The position numbers and the translations under genes were made by a program. Of a DNA stretch of 64,000 bases, positions 44,018 through 56,974 are shown in pieces (positions within the stretch are counted from its first letter, which is position 1; each line of letters opens with the position of its first letter). The notes under the pieces were generated by a model. The model was not told the DNA's origin. It worked only from the letters and a program-made list of their open reading frames with translations, and did not search any database. Source of the stretch: a phage; assembly GCA_017676145.1 (NCBI GenBank), contig GCA_017676145.1_3628.1. One strand, written 5' to 3'.

Positions 44018-44995
44018 TTATTTGTTAGATTCTGCACGTGCACGAGCAAGTGCTTTTGCAACGTTTTCAGCAAGAATTTCTTCTGCGGATTTTGCAATAT
44101 CATCCACAACAGGTTCGCCATCATTACCATGTTCAGTGGTGGCAAACTCTTCTTTAGTTTTATGCACCTCTGCTTCCAGCTCTTCAATTTTTGCTTGAGC
44201 TTTCTCCAGCATAGCTACGATAGGTTCGTTAGCTTTCTCCAGCATGAAGTCAACCAGGGTTGCGTGATCTTCTTCACCAACAAAGCTTAAAGCTTGAGCC
44301 TTAGTCAGCATTTTAGCTTTTTCAACTTCAACCTGGGCCTTGATGATTTCTTCAGCTTTACTCTGGGTTGCTTTCAGCTCTTCTACTTGCTTCAGCAGAT
44401 CCAGATACTCTTTAGTTTTGGTTACGTCCACCGGATTCTCCTCGGTATTTGCGGATTTTGCAACATCATCCACCTCGGTAGTTTTATCCACCTCAGTAGG
44501 TTCCTGTACCGCCTTGATCAGGTTCCCTTCTTTATCGAAGAGATCAGCGGTTACTTGTTCAAAAATCTGTTGTGTTTTTAGCAGGCTGTACTGATCTACC
44601 ACACTAAGCTGCTTGCCTTCTTTTGCAGCTTTATGAATGGTCACGTTATCACAACGCTCTTCCAGCCATGAAATACAAGACTCTGCGTCAGCTTGCGCCC
44701 ATTCCCAATCAGGATGCTCTTTAGCCCAAGCTTCCTCTTCAATCTCAAAACCAAGCATGTGTGCAAGTGCTTTGGCATCATCATACCACATATCGAAGAA
44801 ACGACGCAGGTATTCTTCAAAACTAAGCTCCACAGTAACTTGGCGAAGTGCCTTAACAATATCTTCTGTTAACTGCTCAGGCTGAAGATCACTCTTCATC
44901 AAAAGAGATACAGGTCTGTTGTTAGCGCTATAGCCTTGAGCCTTATGGCACAGGGCAATCCCCTTCTCTTTAATAGTAATCGTTTTTTCAGACAT
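44018..44995 (-). CDS. scaffolding protein (putative)
   Basis: 325 aa, highly acidic, Glu/Lys/Ala-rich coiled-coil composition; position after portal. Confidence 0.55.
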   Translation of the reverse strand: MSEKTITIKEKGIALCHKAQGYSANNRPVSLLMKSDLQPEQLTEDIVKALRQVTVELSFEEYLRRFFDMWYDDAKALAHMLGFEIEEEAWAKEHPDWEWAQADAESCISWLEERCDNVTIHKAAKEGKQLSVVDQYSLLKTQQIFEQVTADLFDKEGNLIKAVQEPTEVDKTTEVDDVAKSANTEENPVDVTKTKEYLDLLKQVEELKATQSKAEEIIKAQVEVEKAKMLTKAQALSFVGEEDHATLVDFMLEKANEPIVAMLEKAQAKIEELEAEVHKTKEEFATTEHGNDGEPVVDDIAKSAEEILAENVAKALARARAESNK

Positions 44996-47920: not shown

Positions 47921-48923
47921 TCTTAAGCAGACAGGATTATCGAATCCTTATATTCAAAGGTGGTCGCAACACCACCTTCCGCACCTTTACGTGCTGCTGC
48001 ATGTTACCATGCAGAGTAGACTATATCACCACCCATCTCAGGGTGCTTCGCTTTTCGAGCGCCATAAGCTTGCGCCCTACTCCCTCTCGGGATAGTCGTT
48101 GAACTACATTACCAATCGTAATTGTTTGAAATATAGGTGTAAGTCTTACGATCTTTTATTCCTTTAACAACACTAAAACTTACTCCCCACTTCTTAGCTA
48201 TTTTATTTACACACAAAACCCTGTCGCTAAGATCCTCGCAGATACCTATTATCTTGTGCTCACTTATCCTATTAGAGGTTGGCACTTTTCTAAAGTTAAA
48301 CTCTTTAGAAATATCTGGGTATACTGAGCCATTCTTTATACCACTTACAAGTGGTTGATTGACACCAAACATTTCACAAATGTCTTTTACCCTTGCACCT
48401 TGCTCTAACAGCCTACATATTTCAAGAGCAGTGGCATCATCTAGGGACCTGTATCTATTGATATAGTCCTTTTTAAGTCCCATTTCATGAGCGTGATGTG
48501 TGTTTTCCTCAGGCGTTGTCCACTCAAGGTTCCATGCGGCGTTATTCAACTTATTACCATCCAGGTGGTTTACTTGAGTTTTCACGCTGGGATTATCATT
48601 ATCAACAAAAGTCATAGCAATCACTCTGTGGACTAGCACTTGGAACTTTTTACCGCCCTCGCACAAAGTTACCATAGCATAGCCAGTCTTTTTCTGCACA
48701 TTAGGATGGAGGAATTTATTAGAATACAGACTGTAAATTCTTCCATCGTATGTAGCACAATAATGATTGTAACCTAAAAAGCCTAAATTTTTCATTTCAA
48801 ACATCTCCCTACTACAGGTTCGGAAGGGTAATTATAGCTGCTGATTGTCCGTTTAGCAATCGGATTTTCCAGCAATTAACGAAGTTATTCGACGTGCATT
48901 TCTGCACGAAGCCACTATCATTT
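47921..48923 (-). mobile_element. group I intron 2 in terminase large subunit gene, carrying an HNH homing endonuclease ORF; ends approximate
   Basis: Minus-strand core elements P AATTGCTGGAAAA (48866-48878), Q AATCAGCAGC (48837-48846), R GTTCAACGACTA (48083-48094), S GATATAGTC (48019-48027) in canonical order; in-frame stop right after the exon; ORF between Q and R. Confidence 0.75.
48109..48804 (-). CDS. intron-encoded HNH homing endonuclease (231 aa)
   Basis: NHLDGNKLNNAAWNLEWTTPEEN HNH motif; located inside intron 2 between Q and R elements. Confidence 0.8.
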   Translation of the reverse strand: MFEMKNLGFLGYNHYCATYDGRIYSLYSNKFLHPNVQKKTGYAMVTLCEGGKKFQVLVHRVIAMTFVDNDNPSVKTQVNHLDGNKLNNAAWNLEWTTPEENTHHAHEMGLKKDYINRYRSLDDATALEICRLLEQGARVKDICEMFGVNQPLVSGIKNGSVYPDISKEFNFRKVPTSNRISEHKIIGICEDLSDRVLCVNKIAKKWGVSFSVVKGIKDRKTYTYISNNYDW

Positions 48924-49241: not shown

Positions 49242-49560
49242 CGTTTATGTTCAGGCAAGGTCGCTAGTCTTGCCCCGCCATTTTCAGGCAGCTGCATGTC
49301 TCCATGCAGACCAGACTATATCTTATAAGCTATAACAACAGCTTACCCTCCCGTTTCGAATCGCTTGATTCTACGTCTTTCGACTAGTCGTTGAACGTTC
49401 ATCCTCTCGGATGCTTCGCTGCGGATTATCTAAATCAACACTCTGTTACCATACCTTCGATCTCTCTTCGAAGCCTCTATTATGTTACCATAACAGGTTG
49501 GTGGTGTTAATAATAAAGATTTCCCCGCAATTAGGGAGGTTTTACGAGAGCTACAAATTA
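49242..49560 (-). mobile_element. group I intron 1 in terminase large subunit gene (no ORF)
   Basis: Minus-strand P AATTGCGGGGAA (49521-49532), Q AATCCGCAGC (49418-49427), R GTTCAACGACTA (49385-49396), S GATATAGTC (49316-49324); exon ends GGT followed by TAA, as in T4 td-type introns. Confidence 0.75.
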
Positions 49561-49986
49561 ACCCTCATCGAAGCAAACCATGGTGTACTCAAGCCCTTGA
49601 TGGTTAAGCTTATCTTGGACATACTCCATGTGGCAGTATTTTACAACGGCCCCTTTTTTGCTCCTGTCCCACTTGCCAGTGCTCGGATCAAACCGTGGAA
49701 AAATAAACTTATGATCCTTCTCTCTGAACTTTGGTTTAATGTTTTCAGGCAGATCACTGTAAATAGCTACTGCTTTAGGCCATAGACCTCCTTCACCCTC
49801 CAGCTGCGGGGTTGTTCTTCGGAACATAACCACAGAGCTGTGTGGGTCATCAATAATTTTAAGTGGCATTAGCTGCAAGAGGAACGACTTGCCAGAACCG
49901 GCTGCACCTCCGATCACCAAAATATCTGCATCGTTCTCAAGGATCATCTTCTGCTTTTCAGAACACGGTCCGTAAATCTTAGACAT
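49561..49986 (-). CDS. terminase large subunit, exon 1 (ATPase domain)
   Basis: Walker A GGAAGSGKS and Walker B MVCFDEG; start ATG overlaps the o-spanin stop (TAATG). Confidence 0.75.
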
Positions 49987-50685: not shown

Positions 50686-50717
50686 GAAAAAACCCCGCAG
50701 CTATGCAGCTAACGGGG
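50686..50717 (-). terminator. rho-independent terminator
   Basis: On minus strand CCCCG...CGGGG hairpin followed by TTTTTTCGTTT, between the 89-aa gene and the spanin gene. Confidence 0.55.
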
Positions 50718-50773: not shown

Positions 50774-51043
50774 TTATCGAGGCACTCGGTGGATGATTCT
50801 GACAGTAACTGCATTCTCATTCATCAAGTATGCATCCACATCTCTGTAAATATAAAACTTCTGCTCGCTATCAACAACACAAGCCACTGCCCCTTCAGAG
50901 TTGTCTTCAAAGAAGACCACAACTGCATCGCAGCTTAGTTCATGATACGACTCTCGAAGATTTACAGCAAGAGGGTTGAAATCGTCACGAAAATCTACAG
51001 TATGGGTTGGATTTACACGTTCTACAATTTTAAGTGTATACAT
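50774..51043 (-). CDS. hypothetical protein (89 aa)
   Basis: ORF downstream of tRNA array with AAGGAA RBS. Confidence 0.45.
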   Translation of the reverse strand: MYTLKIVERVNPTHTVDFRDDFNPLAVNLRESYHELSCDAVVVFFEDNSEGAVACVVDSEQKFYIYRDVDAYLMNENAVTVRIIHRVPR

Positions 51044-51089
51044 TTTAAAGGTTCCTTTTGTGTGTATATATTTAAAGTATAACTAAAGG

Positions 51090-51166
51090 TGGTCTCCACG
51101 GAGTGATTCGAACACTCGACCTCCTGATCCCAAATCAGGCGCTCTACCAAGCTGAGCTACGCGGAG
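51090..51166 (-). tRNA. tRNA-Pro (anticodon UGG)
   Basis: Manual cloverleaf: acceptor CTCCGCG/CGTGGAG (C1-G72), D-arm GCTC/GAGC, anticodon loop TTTGGGA, T-arm GAGTG-TTCGAAT-CACTC, encoded CCA. Confidence 0.8.
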
Positions 51167-51177
51167 TATTTATAATT

Positions 51178-51252
51178 TGGTGGCCCTGGGTGGAATTGAA
51201 CCACCGTCTGGCGATTATGAGTCGCTTGCTTGAACCTTCCAGCTACAGGGCC
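51178..51252 (-). tRNA. tRNA-Met (anticodon CAU; elongator Met or Ile2 type cannot be distinguished)
   Basis: Manual fold: acceptor GGCCCTG/CAGGGCC, anticodon loop CTCATAA, T-arm GGTGG-TTCAATT-CCACC, encoded CCA. Confidence 0.75.
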
Positions 51253-51253
51253 A

Positions 51254-51329
51254 TGGTGCTGATGGCAGGACTTGAACCTGCAACCTATTGATTACAAATC
51301 AATTGCACTACCGATTGTGCTACATCAGC
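51254..51329 (-). tRNA. tRNA-Thr (anticodon UGU)
   Basis: Manual fold: acceptor GCTGATG/CATCAGC, D-arm GCAC/GTGC, anticodon stem ATTGA/TCAAT with loop TTTGTAA, T-arm GCAGG-TTCAAGT-CCTGC, encoded CCA. Confidence 0.8.
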
Positions 51330-51335
51330 AAAAAG

Positions 51336-51440
51336 GTGCTAGGTGATGGAATCGAACCACCTATGTATTCAACGACTACCTCGTCTATTTTCAGGATTAA
51401 AAATCCTCGCCCTTGCCAAAGGGCTTACCTAGCGCAATAT
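51336..51440 (-). ncRNA. tRNA-like element, non-canonical (pseudo-tRNA or small stable RNA)
   Basis: Has 7-bp acceptor-like stem GCTAGGT/ACCTAGC, D-like arm GCCC/GGGC and T-arm GGTGG-TTCGATT-CCATC, but no 7-nt anticodon loop and ~30 nt extra between anticodon-like and T arms; CCA not fully encoded. Confidence 0.35.
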
Positions 51441-51531
51441 GTTGACCATGTGGCTAGTCGGCGATGACGACTGTAACATTTGATAATCCGGTTCTGCTTC
51501 CGGCTTTCGCTTAATTACAAGGTCAACAATG

Positions 51532-51622
51532 TGGCGGAGAGTAATGGAATCGAACCATCATCGAGTCATCCTCAACGGGACGGTTTTCAAGACCGCTTGA
51601 GCACCATTGCTCCCTACCCTCC
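51532..51622 (-). tRNA. tRNA-Ser (anticodon UGA), type II with long variable arm
   Basis: Acceptor GGAGGGT/ACTCTCC, anticodon arm GCGGT-CTTGAAA-ACCGT nearly identical to E. coli tRNA-Ser(UGA) as recalled, ~20-nt variable arm, discriminator G, encoded CCA. Confidence 0.75.
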
Positions 51623-51736
51623 TTTATAAATTACACTGATAATGACACTGATTTTCGAGCAGTTAGTGACTAGTATAAACGACGATAAATATCAATGCCA
51701 TTATCTGTATGATTTATGCATTTAAAAATATAAATT

Positions 51737-51824
51737 TGGTGGTGAGTGATGGAGTCGAACCACCCGAATCGCAATGATAACAGATTTACAGTCTGCCCCG
51801 CTACCCCTACGGAATTAACTCACC
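51737..51824 (-). tRNA. tRNA-Tyr (anticodon GUA), type II
   Basis: Acceptor GGTGAGT/ACTCACC, anticodon stem CAGA/TCTG with loop CTGTAAA, long variable arm, T-arm GGTGG-TTCGACT-CCATC, encoded CCA. Confidence 0.75.
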
Positions 51825-51954
51825 TAAATACTAATATTTAAATTCTTTTTAAAATAGCTAGTGTTCTCACCACTAACTATGAGGTATCGGTAAAGTGGTT
51901 ACCGCCACTTGCCGAAGATTTACTCTGCTAAAGTAAGCTACATTAAAAAGAACT

Positions 51955-52029
51955 TGGCACCCCGTACTGGACTCGAACCAGTGTCAACGGCTTAGAAGGC
52001 CGCTGCTTTATCCACTAAGCTAACAGGGC
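51955..52029 (-). tRNA. tRNA-Arg (anticodon UCU)
   Basis: Acceptor GCCCTGT/ACGGGGT (two G-U pairs), D-arm GCTT/AAGC, anticodon stem GCGGC/GCCGT with loop CTTCTAA, T-arm ACTGG-TTCGAGT-CCAGT, encoded CCA. Confidence 0.7.
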
Positions 52030-52087
52030 ACTGGGTGGCTTTCTTTTACACCTGAGCCGCCAGAAAAGGTGGGAGACCATGTTTACA

Positions 52088-52116
52088 ATATTACACTGTT
52101 AAGCAAAGTTTGTCAA
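52088..52116 (-). promoter_or_regulatory. sigma70-like promoter for the tRNA array (TTGACA-17-TAATAT)
   Basis: On minus strand TTGACAaactttgcttaacagtgTAATAT, ~55 nt upstream of the first tRNA 5' end. Confidence 0.55.
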
Positions 52117-52125
52117 GAAAATATT

Positions 52126-52464
52126 TTAACTATTGCCAACAGGCTGTATCTCTGTGGTAAATGGCATAAAAGGTGCTGGTTTTTCAGCCTCTTCTACTAC
52201 CACCTCTTCCTCTTCACCAAACATCTCATCATATTCTTCCTGCATTCGGTCTGCCTTATCAAGGACATACTCTGCAATGCTTTGACGAATATTTTGCTTG
52301 GTTTTCGGATCCAACATCAGCTCTCTTAAAACTTTGTGAGCTTCTGGAACCATCGCTATAAAAGATTCCTTCATATCAAGAATGTTCTTCTCTAGCTGAA
52401 TGGCGTTGGACTCCTCTTTCAGAGGTCTGCCTCTACGGCGACGCTTTTTAGTTGTATCCGCCAT
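52126..52464 (-). CDS. basic/acidic bipartite protein with AT-hook-like KKRRRRGRP motif (112 aa)
   Basis: ATG at 52464 with GGAGG RBS preferred over the listed 52584 start; highly acidic C-terminus; directly upstream of the tRNA array. Confidence 0.5.
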   Translation of the reverse strand: MADTTKKRRRRGRPLKEESNAIQLEKNILDMKESFIAMVPEAHKVLRELMLDPKTKQNIRQSIAEYVLDKADRMQEEYDEMFGEEEEVVVEEAEKPAPFMPFTTEIQPVGNS

Positions 52465-52492
52465 GTTTCCTCCATTATCACGTGATAGGTGG

Positions 52493-52521
52493 ATTTTATC
52501 ACGGCAAATACTGATTGTCAA
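52493..52521 (-). promoter_or_regulatory. sigma70-like promoter (TTGACA-17-TAAAAT) with downstream 12-bp perfect palindrome
   Basis: On minus strand TTGACAatcagtatttgccgtgaTAAAAT; palindrome TATCACGTGATA (52476-52487) lies between the -10 and the RBS. Confidence 0.55.
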
Positions 52522-52809
52522 GTTCGCCGCAGGGTGGTATTCCCTGCGACTTGCCCAGCGTCCTGGACCAGAAAGACCCAACAAGTGGGTTACCAGAGAC
52601 CCATTACCGCGCTTTGGCTCGACCTTATTACAGGTTGGCTGGGGTCACATCGTCATGTGCTGGCTGCCCCTACCATTTTAAGTGTGGTGCACTATCAAGC
52701 CCTCTAAGGGGAACTCAGCATTCTCCGAACCCTGTTTCAAAGCATCCGGAGATAAAGCCATCAAACTCATCTTTAAATTGGATATTCATCATGATACACG
52801 AAAACAACC

Positions 52810-54965: not shown

Positions 54966-55520
54966 TTACTCCCCGCTGTCAATAGCAAGACTCATTGCAA
55001 TACGGTATGCCTCTTCTAATGGTAAGAGTCTCCCCCACACATCCCAACCGACATCAAACTGCCTGCCAAACAACTGTTGCGTGGTTCCGTGAGCATGACC
55101 GAACAGTTGGACTGATCCGTGATGCTTTCTGTTCCACGTTGCAAACTGGTAATGACTCATACAGATCAAATTCTTGTTGTGGCGAAACTCGTAATAATCT
55201 ACAACCTCATGATAGAACTCTTTCATAATTCTGACAGTCGTCCTTGTGTCATGGTTGCCACGAACAAGAATAATATGTCCGTTCAACATATTTAGAATAT
55301 CTGGAAGTAAGTTGTTGATATTCTTATCATTAGTGCACGCAATATCCCCCAAGTGGAACACAGTGTCTGCAGGTGACACAACAGAGTTCCACTCGGTGAT
55401 GATTCCAGCATTCATACTGTCAAGATTGTGATCATACTGAGATCTGTGTTTTTGACACGAGTCAAACTCCATGACCCGCTGGTGGAGAAAGTGTGTGTCA
55501 CTTGTTACAAAGTATTTCAT
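54966..55520 (-). CDS. calcineurin-like metallophosphoesterase (phosphatase)
   Basis: Internal start MKYFVTSDTHF preferred over the listed 55625; motifs D-x-H (SDTHF), GD (LGDIA), GNHD, GHAH typical of the metallophosphoesterase fold. Confidence 0.65.
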   Translation of the reverse strand: MKYFVTSDTHFLHQRVMEFDSCQKHRSQYDHNLDSMNAGIITEWNSVVSPADTVFHLGDIACTNDKNINNLLPDILNMLNGHIILVRGNHDTRTTVRIMKEFYHEVVDYYEFRHNKNLICMSHYQFATWNRKHHGSVQLFGHAHGTTQQLFGRQFDVGWDVWGRLLPLEEAYRIAMSLAIDSGE

Positions 55521-55527
55521 ACATTCC

Positions 55528-55938
55528 TCATTTAAGTTTAATGCAGTTTTTAAGCTGGCGTTCCATACGATCCACGACCATGTCTGGAACATCATGAATG
55601 CTTTTATTACCGTGGCGGTTTTCAACCACGATTACGGTATAACTATACCCATGACTGATTGCCATGTCAACATATTCTTGCACATGTTTTTCTTTTGTAA
55701 ACGTATTACTTACCACGATACGGTCGTATCCCATACGCATCATATCTTCTACGTTATCTTTGCACCATTTTGCTGCAAGTGTTACTTTACTTGCATCCCA
55801 GTTGTAATTGCCGTCATCGTCGTACCAGAACATGTCGTTCTCAAAATGTGGATACAGACCTTCTAAAGATAGCGCATTTGCCAGTGTTGATTTGCCAGAC
55901 CCTGGTAGACCACGCACGATATATAGCATTTTAGACAT
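55528..55938 (-). CDS. P-loop polynucleotide 5'-kinase-like protein (T4 Pnk kinase-domain-like)
   Basis: ATG at 55938 with GGAGG RBS preferred over the listed 56094; LPGSGKST Walker A, ENDMF Asp, VVSNTF and VPDMVVDRMERQ blocks parallel T4 Pnk kinase motifs recalled from memory. Confidence 0.6.
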   Translation of the reverse strand: MSKMLYIVRGLPGSGKSTLANALSLEGLYPHFENDMFWYDDDGNYNWDASKVTLAAKWCKDNVEDMMRMGYDRIVVSNTFTKEKHVQEYVDMAISHGYSYTVIVVENRHGNKSIHDVPDMVVDRMERQLKNCIKLK

Positions 55939-55966
55939 AGCGGCCCTCCGTTTTAATTTTAATGAT

Positions 55967-55995
55967 AGTATAGCGTGCTCTTTTGAACATTTCAA
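55967..55995 (-). promoter_or_regulatory. candidate promoter (TTGAAA-17-TATACT) in divergent control region
   Basis: On minus strand TTGAAAtgttcaaaagagcacgcTATACT upstream of the kinase gene; a plus-strand TTGACA (55998-56003) faces the RNA ligase gene. Confidence 0.4.
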
Positions 55996-56038
55996 GTGTT
56001 GACATGATGCTGTTTGTGTGGGAAGATTGTGGAACAAA

Positions 56039-56974
56039 ATGACAAATGAGGAACGTATGATGAAGTATTTTAATGCAGACGACCTAGTTGACAAAGGTCT
56101 TGTAACCAGCAGATATTACCCAGATCTTGGATTAAAGATCTATAAATATGCCAGAAAAGTATTTTACAACAATTTATGGCATTTGTCTCCTCGTTTGCTG
56201 GAGTGCCGGGGAATTGTTGTCGGTAATGAAGGAAATGTTGTGGCATGGCCCTTCACAAAAGTGTTTAACTTGGGAGAAAACTCCACCAACCTGCCTGACA
56301 ATAAGCTTGTGACGGCGGTAGAGAAAAAGAACGGATTCCTTGGTGTGGTATCATCTCATAAAGGTGAACTATTGTTCTCAACAACCGGATCTCTTGATTC
56401 TCCATATTGTAACCTCGCAAAGGAAACCATCCAGGAGCAATGTGGTAATTTAGATCTTATCAAGAAGGTTATGGGCAAAGAAAACATGACATTCATGTTT
56501 GAAATTTGTCACCCTTCAGATCCGCATATTGTTCAGGAAGATCATGGCGCATATTTGATAGGCTGCAGATATAATGATTCTGGAATAATGCTACCAGAAG
56601 CAGCTTTAGATGGGATTGCCAAACACCTTGGTGCAAAACGTCCTCACACTGTGCGTGAAATTCCGTTCAGCTATGCAAAAGAATTAGCTGCAGAAACAAG
56701 AGGTGAAGGGTATATGATTCGTAAGCCTTACTACCCTTATGACCTGCAGCTGAAGATCAAGTCTCCATACTATCTGGCACGGAAGGCCGTAATGAGGGGT
56801 AAGGCTTGGAAGATTTGGGATGATGATATCTTTAAACGTATTGACGAAGAGTTTTACGGCATGGTAAACTTCATTCGTAGCAATTACACAGAGGATGTGT
56901 GGAACTGCCTCCTGGAGCAGGAACGCCGTGAGATACTTGATTGCTATTTCCACAACGAGGACTATATGCAATGA
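56039..56974 (+). CDS. RNA ligase, T4 RnlA (Rnl1)-like
   Basis: Blocks LECRGIVV, KVFNLGENS, motif I VEKKNGF (K-x-N-G), motif IV EGYMIRK, motif V LKIKSPYY align with T4 Rnl1 as recalled; start may be the ATG at 56039 or 56057. Confidence 0.7.
   Translation: MTNEERMMKYFNADDLVDKGLVTSRYYPDLGLKIYKYARKVFYNNLWHLSPRLLECRGIVVGNEGNVVAWPFTKVFNLGENSTNLPDNKLVTAVEKKNGFLGVVSSHKGELLFSTTGSLDSPYCNLAKETIQEQCGNLDLIKKVMGKENMTFMFEICHPSDPHIVQEDHGAYLIGCRYNDSGIMLPEAALDGIAKHLGAKRPHTVREIPFSYAKELAAETRGEGYMIRKPYYPYDLQLKIKSPYYLARKAVMRGKAWKIWDDDIFKRIDEEFYGMVNFIRSNYTEDVWNCLLEQERREILDCYFHNEDYMQ

What the first reader, a model, noticed from the sequence alone, without database searches (positions are those of the whole stretch)
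51090..52116. Six-gene tRNA array driven by its own consensus-like promoter
tRNA-Arg(UCU), Tyr(GUA), Ser(UGA), Thr(UGU), Met(CAU) and Pro(UGG) are co-oriented on the minus strand behind TTGACA-17-TAATAT. The anticodons include ones that read codons typically rare in enterobacterial hosts (AGA, ACA, CCA, UCA) and potential targets of anticodon nucleases, which fits the nearby RNA-repair genes.
Basis: partly seen in the sequence, partly recalled or inferred. Interest (0 to 1): 0.4.

Follow-up and report, generated by a model that had tools for sequence, protein, structure and literature searches.

The report
Known rV5-type phage tRNA operon
This is the already published tRNA gene cluster of an rV5-like E. 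coli phage, which mainly supplies tRNAs for codons that the phage uses far more than its host; the gaps between the tRNAs also hold three conserved folded RNAs that nobody has annotated.

Summary
All six tRNAs and the TTGACA-17-TAATAT site are at the stated coordinates. The window is a Vequintavirus (99% identical to phage NHEP1). The 2013 rV5 paper already lists the same six tRNAs, the codon-usage argument and this exact promoter ('PtRNA'), so the finding as stated is already known.

Refinements:
- The 'Met(CAU)' tRNA is almost certainly a lysidine-type tRNA-Ile2 that reads AUA.
- The codon test supports supplementation strongly for AGA/AGG (11x, 9x), AUA (6x) and ACA (4.4x). Support is weak for UCA, CCA and Tyr codons.
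- An Rnl1-like RNA ligase, a kinase and a metallophosphoesterase do lie 3-5 kb away. Any link to anticodon nucleases remains inference.

- A seventh, tRNA-shaped RNA (51335-51433) is conserved across Vequintavirinae with compensatory changes, but its 'anticodon' hairpin has a 5-6 nt loop.
- A ~116-nt four-way-junction RNA (51840-51955) came in as a cassette with tRNA-Tyr. It is shared with Phapecoctavirus, phi92-like and some T5-like phages.
- A ~90-nt structured element (51440-51528) follows tRNA-Ser(UGA). It also occurs in P7, P1-like prophages and phage lambda.
- A long AT-rich hairpin lies between Tyr and Ser.

None of these matches Rfam.

The parts
52088..52116 (-). Sigma-70-like promoter: -35 TTGACA at 52116-52111, 17-nt spacer, -10 TAATAT at 52093-52088. 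It is identical to the predicted 'PtRNA' of phage rV5.
   Evidence: Consensus scan, 10 of 12 matches. The same 29-nt string is listed as PtRNA in Table S4 of PMC3606486. It is annotated as a sigma70-type promoter in phage ECML-10. It is predicted only; no transcript start has been mapped.
52030..52087 (-). Leader between the promoter and the first tRNA.
   Evidence: Read from the sequence. Its fold is no better than shuffled sequence (z = +0.98).
51955..52029 (-). tRNA-Arg(UCU), which reads AGA/AGG. CCA is encoded.
   Evidence: ARAGORN. Rfam tRNA 67.8 bits. AGA is 11.3x and AGG 9.2x enriched in phage ORFs.
51840..51955 (-). Element A: a ~116-nt structured RNA forming a four-way junction. It has an 18-bp outer stem and three hairpins and sits directly upstream of tRNA-Tyr. 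Most Vequintaviruses lack it.
   Evidence: On 13 distinct sequences, 38 pairs are 97.6% paired and 7 pairs have changes on both sides; 0 of 500 shuffles reach this. Covariance model R2 scores 132.9 bits on the sense strand and 41.6 on the antisense strand. The fold has z = -3.4. No Rfam match.
51740..51824 (-). tRNA-Tyr(GUA), Phapecoctavirus-type allele with a 3-nt acceptor-D connector. CCA follows at 51737-51739.
   Evidence: Rfam tRNA 39.0 bits. Not called by ARAGORN. 100% identical to ESCO13 and 85.5% to T5 tRNA-Tyr. Alignment.
51623..51736 (-). AT-rich spacer that folds into a long imperfect hairpin of about 30 bp. Found only in Vequintavirus. It may be a processing site.
   Evidence: Fold z = -4.5; 0 of 200 shuffles fold as well. 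Homologs occur only in Vequintavirus, nearly all at >=95% identity, so covariation cannot be tested.
51532..51622 (-). tRNA-Ser(UGA), class II. CCA is encoded.
   Evidence: ARAGORN. Rfam sees it only as tRNA-Sec at 41.5 bits, below the threshold of 47. 89-90% identical to tRNA-Ser(UGA) of P7 and prophage contigs and 75% to T5 tRNA-Ser1.
51440..51528 (-). Element B: a ~90-nt structured element 3' of tRNA-Ser(UGA). A terminal helix encloses a conserved 68-nt core with two hairpins.
   Evidence: The core is 85-88% identical to lambda 44866-44934, to P7 and to P1-like and lambdoid contigs. At least 5 unrelated terminal-helix sequences all pair, and hairpin 2 shows a G-C to U-A change. Fold z = -2.2. 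No Rfam match. Never annotated in the 426 E. coli genomes that carry it.
51335..51433 (-). Seventh gene: a tRNA-shaped RNA with five arms. The acceptor, D and T arms are canonical. It has a large extra arm flanked by invariant strands, and an 'anticodon' hairpin with a 5-nt loop. Relatives annotate it variously as tRNA-Lys, tRNA-OTHER, tRNA-??? or tRNA-TERM.
   Evidence: ARAGORN 'tRNA-???'. Rfam tRNA 35.5 bits. On 7 distinct sequences, 22 pairs are 100% paired and 8 have changes on both sides, including the tertiary pair G19:C56 changing to U:A. All homologs fold to the same shape. Model R1 finds it only in Vequintavirinae.
51254..51329 (-). tRNA-Thr(UGU), which reads ACA. CCA is encoded.
   Evidence: ARAGORN. 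Rfam 79.5 bits. ACA is 4.4x enriched.
51178..51252 (-). CAU tRNA, best read as tRNA-Ile2 (lysidine-modified, reads AUA). It lies 1 nt after Thr. CCA is encoded.
   Evidence: ARAGORN and Rfam 60 bits. Its best matches in 5413 of 5426 E. coli genomes are annotated tRNA-Ile in all rows shown. 77% identical to E. coli Ile2 against 60% to metT. It has the C4:G69 and C5:G68 pairs that E. coli TilS uses as identity elements. AUA is 6.0x enriched and AUG 0.84x.
51090..51166 (-). tRNA-Pro(UGG). CCA is encoded.
   Evidence: ARAGORN. Rfam 66.4 bits. CCA is 1.48x enriched.
50774..51043 (-). 89-aa ORF of unknown function (rV5 gp68 family). It is probably co-transcribed with the array, because no terminator lies between them.
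   Evidence: ORF list. phrog_8729, unknown function, 148.9 bits. No Pfam match.
50695..50708 (-). Terminator-like hairpin followed by a T run. It is the first candidate end of the transcription unit.
   Evidence: Consensus scan. Not verified.
54966..56974 (.). Context: an RNA-repair-type gene trio. Metallophosphoesterase 54966-55625 (-), P-loop kinase 55528-56094 (-), Rnl1-like RNA ligase 56018-56974 (+).
   Evidence: Pfam Metallophos 28.1, AAA_33 39.8 and RNA_lig_T4_1 57.2 bits. PHROGs phosphoesterase 178.8; the ATPase family plus polynucleotide kinase 37.8; RNA ligase phrog_562 223.3.

Best explanation
The interval is the polycistronic tRNA operon of a Vequintavirus (an rV5-like myovirus). 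Host RNA polymerase probably starts at the sigma-70-like PtRNA site, and read-through from upstream promoters is also possible. It would transcribe Arg(UCU), Tyr(GUA), Ser(UGA), a tRNA-shaped RNA, Thr(UGU), Ile2(CAU) and Pro(UGG), probably on into an 89-aa ORF. Host RNase P and the 3'-processing enzymes would then release the tRNAs.

The main job of the tRNAs is to top up the isoacceptors for codons that the phage uses much more than E. coli does (AGA/AGG, AUA, ACA; weakly CCA and UCA). The array sits directly upstream of the large late structural gene block. The CAU tRNA would be converted by host TilS to a lysidine tRNA-Ile2.

Processing would also release three non-tRNA structured RNAs (elements A and B and the tRNA-shaped RNA). 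These are under selection for their fold, and their function is unknown.

Shown here: gene identities, folds, covariation, codon bias, homology and cassette exchange. Inferred: promoter use, co-transcription, processing, lysidinylation, and the benefit to translation.
For: - tRNA calls by two programs.
- The window is 99.2% identical to Vequintavirus NHEP1, and the array is annotated in many relatives.
- The same six tRNAs, the same promoter string and the same codon argument were published for rV5.
- Codon test: the cognate codons rank 1, 3, 4, 13, 14, 19, 20 and 35 of 61 by phage/host ratio (Mann-Whitney p = 0.001). With AGG added and AAA dropped, p = 2.5e-5.
- Ile2 identity of the CAU tRNA.
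- Six of the seven genes encode CCA.
- No terminator-like site lies between Pro and the 89-aa ORF; the first one follows that ORF.
- The structural gene module lies immediately downstream.
Against: - No expression data were available, so the promoter, co-transcription and processing are all unverified.
- Promoter-like matches are not enriched in the region.
- CCA, UCA, UAC and UAU are only 1.5-1.65x enriched, so supplementation explains three tRNAs well and the other three weakly.
- The E. coli reference is only 34 ORFs from one 50-kb region.
- The Tyr allele has an atypical 3-nt acceptor-D connector and may be a poor tRNA.
Confidence: 0.85

Rival explanations
1. Anti-defence supply. The array exists mainly to replace, or to outcompete, host tRNAs that are cut by tRNA-targeting immune nucleases. 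Examples are retron-Eco7 PtuAB acting on Tyr, PARIS AriB acting on Lys(UUU) and Thr(UGU), and PrrC acting on Lys. The nearby ligase, kinase and phosphoesterase would reseal cleaved tRNAs. This rival does not exclude codon supplementation.
For: - T5 tRNA-Tyr rescues phage from retron-Eco7, and the window Tyr is 85.5% identical to it.
- Tyr codons are barely enriched, so supplementation explains Tyr poorly.
- AriB targets Lys(UUU) and Thr(UGU).
- An RNA-repair-type gene trio is present.
- tRNA cassettes are exchanged between unrelated E. coli phages, as expected for accessory counter-defence genes.
- The hairpin of the seventh RNA reads U36AAUC-C41. This is the AriB site of tRNA-Lys with the A41->C change that substantially inhibits cleavage.
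Against: - The phage tRNA-Thr keeps the unmodified host cleavage sequence UAAUC|A, whereas T5 and prophage Thr alleles differ there.
- Arg(UCU), Ile2 and Thr match the three most over-used codons, which supplementation explains without any defence.
- No Asn(GUU) gene and no canonical Lys(UUU) tRNA is present.
- No experiment links any Vequintavirus tRNA to a defence system (none found).
Confidence: 0.3
2. The seventh gene (51335-51433) is a working tRNA-Lys(UUU), as tRNAscan-based annotations say. It would have a 4-bp anticodon stem, a 7-nt loop UUUUUAA, discriminator A73 and an unusually long variable arm. It would decode AAA/AAG. In Av-05 the anticodon would have switched to UAU, which reads AUA.
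For: - BASEL and other records annotate it as tRNA-Lys.
- UUU plus A73 are the main E. coli LysRS identity elements (established knowledge, not tested here).
- AAG is 2.3x enriched.
- The Av-05 loop UUUAUAA would give UAU, which reads the 6x-enriched AUA, and no CAU tRNA was found in the 3-kb Av-05 locus.
Against: - The loop-closing pair covaries (U-A in 4 sequences, C-G in 3), so it forms. That leaves loops of 5 nt (Vequintavirus, Avunavirus) or 6 nt (Seunavirus), never 7.
- The Seunavirus loops CAUCCA and CAGCCA have no U33-type anticodon loop.
- The 27:43 pair is absent.
- The 3' ends differ: A-CC-U, U-AC, U-CCA.
- AAA is not enriched (1.0x).
- The most conserved parts are the strands that flank the extra arm, not the anticodon.
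Confidence: 0.12
3. The spacer elements A and B and the AT-rich hairpin have no function of their own. They would be recombination scars, degenerate tRNA remnants or mere processing spacers that travel with neighbouring tRNA genes.
For: - Most Vequintaviruses do without element A.
- Element A travels with tRNA-Tyr and element B with tRNA-Ser, so hitch-hiking is possible.
- One natural hybrid (L063) lacks the terminal helix of B, and in L025 the 5' strand of the outer stem of A is displaced by an insertion.
Against: - Compensatory changes keep every helix of A across three phage groups at 71-99% identity.
- B keeps a terminal helix built from at least five unrelated sequences.
- The score for A is strongly strand-specific.
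- B persists in lambda-type prophages that have no tRNA next to it.
Confidence: 0.25

Closest known systems
tRNA cluster of Escherichia phage rV5 (Kropinski et al. 2013, PMC3606486) and other Vequintavirus genomes
   Same: It has the same six tRNAs in the same order, the same predicted promoter string (PtRNA), and the same position upstream of gp68, the spanins and the intron-containing terminase. DNA identity is 96-99%.
   Different: The window belongs to a minority of Vequintaviruses that carry element A plus a Phapecoctavirus-type tRNA-Tyr between Arg and Tyr. The paper calls the CAU tRNA Met. It does not mention the seventh tRNA-like gene or the structured spacers.
Phage T4 tRNA cluster (eight tRNAs plus the stable 'species 1' and 'species 2' RNAs of unknown function). 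This comparison is from established knowledge and was not examined here.
   Same: The anticodon set overlaps (Arg UCU, Thr UGU, Pro UGG, Ser UGA, Ile CAU). Thr and Ile are adjacent in both. Non-tRNA stable RNAs are embedded in both clusters. Both phages carry Rnl1-type ligase and polynucleotide-kinase-type repair genes.
   Different: No sequence homology of the spacer RNAs to T4 was tested. The repair phosphatase here is a separate metallophosphoesterase and is not fused to the kinase.
Phage T5 tRNA region with annotated stable RNAs (RNAI, RNAIII, RNAIV, and the tRNA-like RNA1, RNA2 and RNA3)
   Same: It is a dense tRNA region with sigma-70 promoters, homing endonucleases and several 'stable RNA with unknown functions' features, some called tRNA-like. 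T5 tRNA-Tyr and tRNA-Ser1 are homologous to the window's genes. Some T5-like phages (HildyBeyeler, Spc35, E22) carry element A directly upstream of tRNA-Tyr.
   Different: T5 itself has no match to element A or to the tRNA-shaped RNA, by BLAST or by covariance models. The window RNAs are therefore not members of the annotated T5 stable-RNA genes.
tRNA clusters of P1/P7 and of lambdoid or P1-like prophages of E. coli
   Same: tRNA-Ser(UGA) is 89-90% identical and is followed by element B at 88% identity. Some contigs hold Arg(tct)-Tyr(gta)-Thr(tgt)-Ser(tga)-[B]-CAU, almost the same set as here. Tyr is 89% identical.
   Different: These are temperate elements. They lack Pro, the tRNA-shaped RNA and element A. 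The terminal helix of B has a different sequence and is longer (15 bp) in the P1 type. In lambda, B stands alone between orf-64 and S with no tRNA.

Membership tests
   Thr 79.5, Arg 67.8, Pro 66.4, CAU 60.0 and Tyr 39.0 bits, against a gathering score of 29. Ser is accepted by ARAGORN, but Rfam scores it only as sub-threshold tRNA-Sec at 41.5 against 47.
tRNA-Ile2 (lysidine, reads AUA) as opposed to elongator tRNA-Met | Acceptor-stem pairs C4:G69 and C5:G68, the major identity elements of E. coli TilS | tested here: met
   The window has GGCCCUG/CAGGGCC, which gives C4:G69 and C5:G68. E. coli metT has U4:A69 and A5:U68. The determinants are quoted from PMC11947777.
tRNA-Ile2 (lysidine, reads AUA) as opposed to elongator tRNA-Met | Overall similarity to known Ile2 genes rather than Met genes, and an Ile2-type anticodon stem-loop | tested here: met
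   77.3% identical to E. coli Ile2, 60% to metT/metU and 49% to T5 Met and fMet. The stem-loop GCGACUCAUAAUCGC is identical to E. coli Ile2. Every listed E. coli match is annotated tRNA-Ile.
tRNA-Ile2 (lysidine, reads AUA) as opposed to elongator tRNA-Met | C34 is actually converted to lysidine, and the tRNA is charged with isoleucine | not testable with these tools
   This needs mass spectrometry of the tRNA, or TilS and IleRS assays.
Sigma-70 promoter | -35 and -10 hexamers close to consensus with 16-18 nt spacing | tested here: met
   TTGACA-17-TAATAT, 10 of 12 matches. It was predicted independently for rV5 and ECML-10.
Sigma-70 promoter | Transcription starts there in vivo | not testable with these tools
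   No transcript data were available. Matches of this quality occur at roughly the chance rate in the region (14 against 10.1).
Decoding tRNA-Lys(UUU): the seventh gene | A 7-nt anticodon loop on a 5-bp stem that presents UUU | tested here: not met
   The covarying closing pair (U-A to C-G) leaves 5- or 6-nt loops. Infernal has to delete position 27 to force a 7-nt loop. Homologs carry UUAUA, CAUCCA or CAGCCA loops.
Decoding tRNA-Lys(UUU): the seventh gene | tRNA L-shape: acceptor, D and T arms plus the D-loop/T-loop tertiary pair | tested here: met
   100% of 154 cells are paired. 8 pairs have changes on both sides, including G19:C56 changing to U19:A56.
T4-type RNA repair (Rnl1 ligase plus polynucleotide kinase/phosphatase): the neighbouring genes | An Rnl1-family ligase domain and a P-loop polynucleotide-kinase domain are present | tested here: met
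   RNA_lig_T4_1 57.2 bits and phrog_562 223.3 bits. The kinase matches AAA_33 at 39.8 bits, phrog_505 polynucleotide kinase at 37.8 bits, and the kinase end of phrog_8238.
T4-type RNA repair (Rnl1 ligase plus polynucleotide kinase/phosphatase): the neighbouring genes | A T4 Pnkp-type phosphatase fused to the kinase, and demonstrated repair of cleaved tRNA | tested here: inconclusive
   The phosphoesterase is a separate calcineurin-like metallophosphoesterase (Pfam 28.1 bits; PDB 1xm7, E = 1.8e-11). The kinase and the ligase have no PDB sequence match. Activity cannot be tested here.
Any Rfam 15 family: elements A and B, the tRNA-shaped RNA and the AT hairpin | A match to a curated covariance model | tested here: not met
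   In E-value mode on 50900-52300 and on the lambda, ESCO13, HildyBeyeler and phi92 loci, elements A and B match no family. The one match in the AT-rich Tyr-Ser spacer is a chance-level microRNA hit (MIR5380, 19.5 bits against a threshold of 150, E = 0.91). The seventh gene matches only the general tRNA model.

The most novel reading that the evidence does not exclude
The 'spacers' of this tRNA operon encode at least three undescribed families of structured RNA.

1. A tRNA-shaped, non-decoding RNA is conserved across Vequintavirinae. In the coliphages its hairpin copies the tRNA-Lys anticodon arm with a change that resists AriB cleavage. It could act as a decoy or competitor for tRNA-targeting nucleases or tRNA-binding enzymes.
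2. Element A is a mobile ~116-nt four-way-junction RNA. It moves as a cassette with tRNA-Tyr or tRNA-Lys between Vequintavirus, Phapecoctavirus, phi92-like and T5-like phages.
3. Element B is a ~90-nt RNA tied to tRNA-Ser(UGA). It also sits unannotated in the late-operon leader of phage lambda and in about 8% of complete E. coli genomes.

If these RNAs are functional, they would be sequence-defined counterparts of the unexplained 'stable RNAs' of the T4 and T5 tRNA clusters, and genetics could be applied to them.
Probability: 0.5. Interest if true: 0.55.

Novelty: already known. Interest (0 to 1): 0.3.

Why it matters
As stated, the finding adds nothing to the 2013 description of rV5. It is a textbook case of a large lytic phage carrying tRNAs for codons that are rare in its host.

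What could matter is inside the array.
- The CAU tRNA is still labelled Met in many GenBank records, and the rV5 authors found it puzzling. Read as an AUA decoder it makes sense.
- Three conserved, covarying, unannotated RNAs lie between the tRNAs. They give a concrete, alignable handle on an old question: what do the non-tRNA stable RNAs of phage tRNA clusters do?
- One of them is present in phage lambda, where genetics is easy.
- The clear cassette exchange of tRNA-plus-RNA modules between unrelated coliphages fits the newer view that phage tRNA regions are accessory, possibly counter-defence, islands.

Tried and rejected
- I tested whether the promoter stands out statistically. It does not (14 promoter-like sites against 10.1 expected). 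Near-identity among close relatives makes conservation uninformative. Distant relatives have other sigma-70-like sites in differently arranged arrays.
- I looked for homologs of element A and of the tRNA-shaped RNA among the annotated T5 stable RNAs, by BLAST and with two covariance models. None was found.
- I considered the seventh gene as tRNA-Sec-like (possible 6-bp D stem with a 4-nt loop, long extra arm) or as a SerRS or LeuRS substrate. I rejected this as unsupported: the acceptor/T arrangement is 7/5, the discriminator varies (A or U), and the extra arm is separated from the core by long single strands.
- I scanned IMG/VR and metagenomes for more variants of the seventh gene. Only the same three loop types turned up, and the remaining pattern hits failed the model.
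- I could not decide between the two competing pairings of the GCUA segment of element A (inner outer-stem or long hairpin 4). Both are fully paired and the deciding positions do not vary.
- I did not make a formal pair count for the terminal helix of element B, because the helices are out of register in the MAFFT alignment. I relied on per-sequence folds instead.
- A literature search for earlier descriptions of these RNAs found nothing, but the library lacks most older subscription papers.
- PDB sequence searches gave no match for the kinase and ligase ORFs.
Full report
**Observation.**
- ARAGORN finds Pro(tgg) 51090-51166, Met(cat) 51178-51252, Thr(tgt) 51254-51329, Ser(tga) 51532-51622 and Arg(tct) 51955-52029 on the minus strand.
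- Rfam finds Thr, Arg, Pro, the CAU tRNA and Tyr(GUA) 51740-51824 above the tRNA gathering score.
- Tyr is missed by ARAGORN. Ser is seen by Rfam only as a sub-threshold tRNA-Sec match. Each is accepted by the other program and has close homologs that are annotated as tRNAs elsewhere.
- TTGACA-17-TAATAT lies at 52116-52088.

**Identity of the window, and prior knowledge.** The region is 99.2% identical to Escherichia phage NHEP1 and 96-98% identical to about a hundred other Vequintavirus genomes.
- The rV5 genome paper reports 'six tRNAs': Arg AGA, Tyr TAC, Thr ACA, Met ATG and Pro CCA by tRNAscan, and Ser by ARAGORN. It compares their codons with E. coli O157 usage and describes the intron in the terminase gene.
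- Its Table S4 lists a promoter 'PtRNA' whose sequence, TTGACAAACTTTGCTTAACAGTGTAatAT, is identical to the window.
- The finding as written is therefore already in the literature.

**The CAU tRNA.** The rV5 authors called a phage tRNA-Met 'seemingly unwarranted'. The evidence points to tRNA-Ile2 instead.
- In 5413 of 5426 complete E. coli genomes the gene has a match, and every listed match is annotated tRNA-Ile.
- It is 77% identical to E. coli tRNA-Ile2 against 60% to metT. It shares the anticodon stem-loop GCGACUCAUAAUCGC.
- It has C4:G69 and C5:G68, the pairs that E. coli TilS uses as major identity elements. tRNA-Met has U4:A69 and A5:U68.
- BASEL phage records already annotate the homolog as tRNA-Ile reading ATA.
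- Lysidine formation itself cannot be tested here.

**Codon test.** I compared 56 non-overlapping window ORFs (18,026 codons) with 34 long ORFs from a 50-kb stretch of E. coli K-12.
- By phage/host frequency ratio, AGA ranks 1 of 61 (11.3x). AGG, read by the same UCU tRNA through wobble, ranks 2 (9.2x). AUA ranks 3 (6.0x) and ACA ranks 4 (4.4x).
- UCA (1.65x), CCA (1.48x), UAC (1.65x) and UAU (1.46x) are only mildly raised. AAA is unchanged (1.0x).
- The cognate codons rank higher than the rest (Mann-Whitney p = 0.001; p = 2.5e-5 with AGG added and AAA dropped).
- Supplementation of scarce isoacceptors thus explains Arg, Ile2 and Thr very well, and Pro, Ser and Tyr only weakly.
- The array sits directly upstream of an 89-aa ORF, the spanins, the terminase and the whole structural module on the same strand. 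No terminator-like site occurs until after the 89-aa ORF.

**Defence and repair.** They are an Rnl1-family ligase (56018-56974), a P-loop kinase with polynucleotide-kinase similarity (55528-56094) and a calcineurin-like phosphoesterase (54966-55625).
- Published work shows that T5 tRNA-Tyr protects against retron-Eco7. [quoted passage not shown]
- The window Tyr is 85.5% identical to T5 Tyr, so an anti-retron role is plausible.
- The window Thr keeps the unaltered host cleavage sequence, which argues against it being an escape variant.
- No experiment connects Vequintavirus tRNAs with any defence system, so this part of the interpretation remains inference.

**The seventh gene.** Relatives annotate it inconsistently, as tRNA-Lys, tRNA-OTHER, tRNA-???(atcc) or tRNA-TERM.
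- Homologs exist only in Vequintavirinae: Vequintavirus, Avunavirus Av-05, Seunavirus KE22 and a few metagenomic contigs.
- Across 7 distinct sequences, all 22 proposed pairs are always paired. 8 pairs show changes on both sides. These include the D-loop/T-loop tertiary pair, G19:C56 in five sequences and U:A in two. Each homolog folds by minimum free energy into the same five-arm shape.
- It is therefore a selected, L-shaped tRNA mimic and not a pseudogene.
- Its 'anticodon' hairpin is not an anticodon arm. The closing pair covaries (U-A to C-G), which leaves loops of 5 nt (UUUUA here, UUAUA in Av-05) or 6 nt (CAUCCA or CAGCCA in Seunavirus). The 3' tails also differ.
- The best-conserved parts are the strands GAAAAUAG and UGAAUACAUAGG, which flank a variable extra hairpin.
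- In the coliphage version the hairpin reads UUUUUAAUCC. This is the tRNA-Lys AriB site with A41->C, a change reported to inhibit cleavage substantially. That is suggestive, not evidence.
- I read this RNA as a non-decoding tRNA mimic of unknown function. A working tRNA-Lys is a low-probability rival.

**Element A (51840-51955).** Most Vequintaviruses have Arg, 4 nt, then Tyr. The window and a minority instead carry a ~126-nt insert plus a different Tyr allele.
- The insert and this Tyr allele are 98.5-100% identical to Phapecoctavirus ESCO13, where the Tyr gene is unannotated. The junctions lie at the shared GCCAAGTT and at the 3' end of Tyr. This is a recombinational cassette swap.
- Diverged copies (71-90% identity) lie in the tRNA clusters of Phapecoctavirus and phi92-like phages and of some, but not all, T5-like phages. 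They always sit directly upstream of tRNA-Tyr or of tRNA-Lys-Tyr.
- On 13 distinct sequences, a four-way junction (an 18-bp outer stem and three hairpins) is 97.6% paired, with 7 pairs changed on both sides. A covariance model scores 133 bits on the sense strand against 42 on the antisense strand, and finds nothing in T5.
- Rfam has no match.

**Element B (51440-51528).** The 68-nt core is 85-88% identical to lambda 44866-44934 (between orf-64 and S), to P7, and to many lambdoid and P1-like contigs.
- In P7 and P1-like contigs it follows a tRNA-Ser(UGA) that is 89-90% identical to the window's gene. Some of these clusters read Arg(tct)-Tyr-Thr-Ser-[B]-CAU, nearly the same set as here.
- At least five unrelated sequences form the enclosing terminal helix, and one internal hairpin shows a G-C to U-A change. 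One natural hybrid lacks the helix.
- B occurs in 426 of 5426 complete E. coli genomes and is never annotated.
- The Tyr-Ser spacer folds into a long AT-rich hairpin (z = -4.5) but has no diverged homologs.

**Verdict.** The refinements are Ile2 instead of Met, seven tRNA-shaped genes instead of six, and modular exchange of tRNA cassettes. The three unannotated structured RNAs are the only parts with some novelty. Their function is not established by anything done here.

Noticed in passing
window 49292-49570 (-), with ORF 48109-48804 (-): A group I intron (Rfam RF00028, 85.2 bits) interrupts the terminase large-subunit gene, and an HNH endonuclease ORF (Pfam HNH_3) lies nearby. This is already described for rV5 ('Introns in terminase', PMC3606486).
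   Followed up: partly
L011:601-669 (lambda NC_001416 44866-44934): Phage lambda carries the conserved core of element B, enclosed by its own 9-bp helix, in the unannotated gap between orf-64/tR' and gene S. No tRNA is adjacent. The same element is in 426 of 5426 complete E. coli genomes (chromosomal prophages and ~95-kb plasmids) and is never annotated.
   Followed up: partly
L152:791-877 (P7 AF503408 72257-72343): P7 has an unannotated tRNA-Ser(UGA) gene, 90% identical to the window's gene, between its annotated tRNA-Thr and terB. Element B follows it.
   Followed up: partly
L008:1335-1419 (ESCO13 KX552041): The Phapecoctavirus ESCO13 record lacks an annotation for a tRNA-Tyr(GUA) gene that is 100% identical to the window's gene. 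ARAGORN misses it there too, probably because of the 3-nt acceptor-D connector.
   Followed up: partly
L004:2570-2911 (phage 241Ecol014PP): In this close relative an HNH endonuclease gene sits where tRNA-Pro lies in the window, and no tRNA-Pro is annotated there. This suggests homing-endonuclease traffic in the array, as in the T5 tRNA region.
   Followed up: no
window 51623-51736 (-): A long AT-rich imperfect hairpin of about 30 bp lies between tRNA-Tyr and tRNA-Ser (z = -4.5). It is conserved only within Vequintavirus. One relative (phage nomo) annotates part of it as a 'repeat_region'. It might be an RNase III-type processing site, but this is unexplained.
   Followed up: partly
and one search hit lists: About 18 records named 'Campylobacter phage' (MG0656xx) are 97-98% identical to E. 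coli Vequintavirus across this array. They are probably mislabelled or contaminant assemblies.
   Followed up: no
L025:7213-7390 and L063 (IMG/VR contigs): Natural variants disturb the proposed helices. In L025 the 5' strand of the outer stem of element A is displaced by an insertion of about 60 nt. L063 is a 5' P1-type / 3' lambda-type hybrid of element B that lacks the terminal helix.
   Followed up: no
window 52493-52521 (-) and ORF 52126-52584 (-): A stronger sigma-70-like site (TTGACA-17-TAAAAT with an extended -10 TG, 11 of 12 matches) lies upstream of the preceding ORF (phrog_3330, unknown function). No terminator separates that ORF from the tRNA promoter, so read-through into the array is likely.
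   Followed up: no
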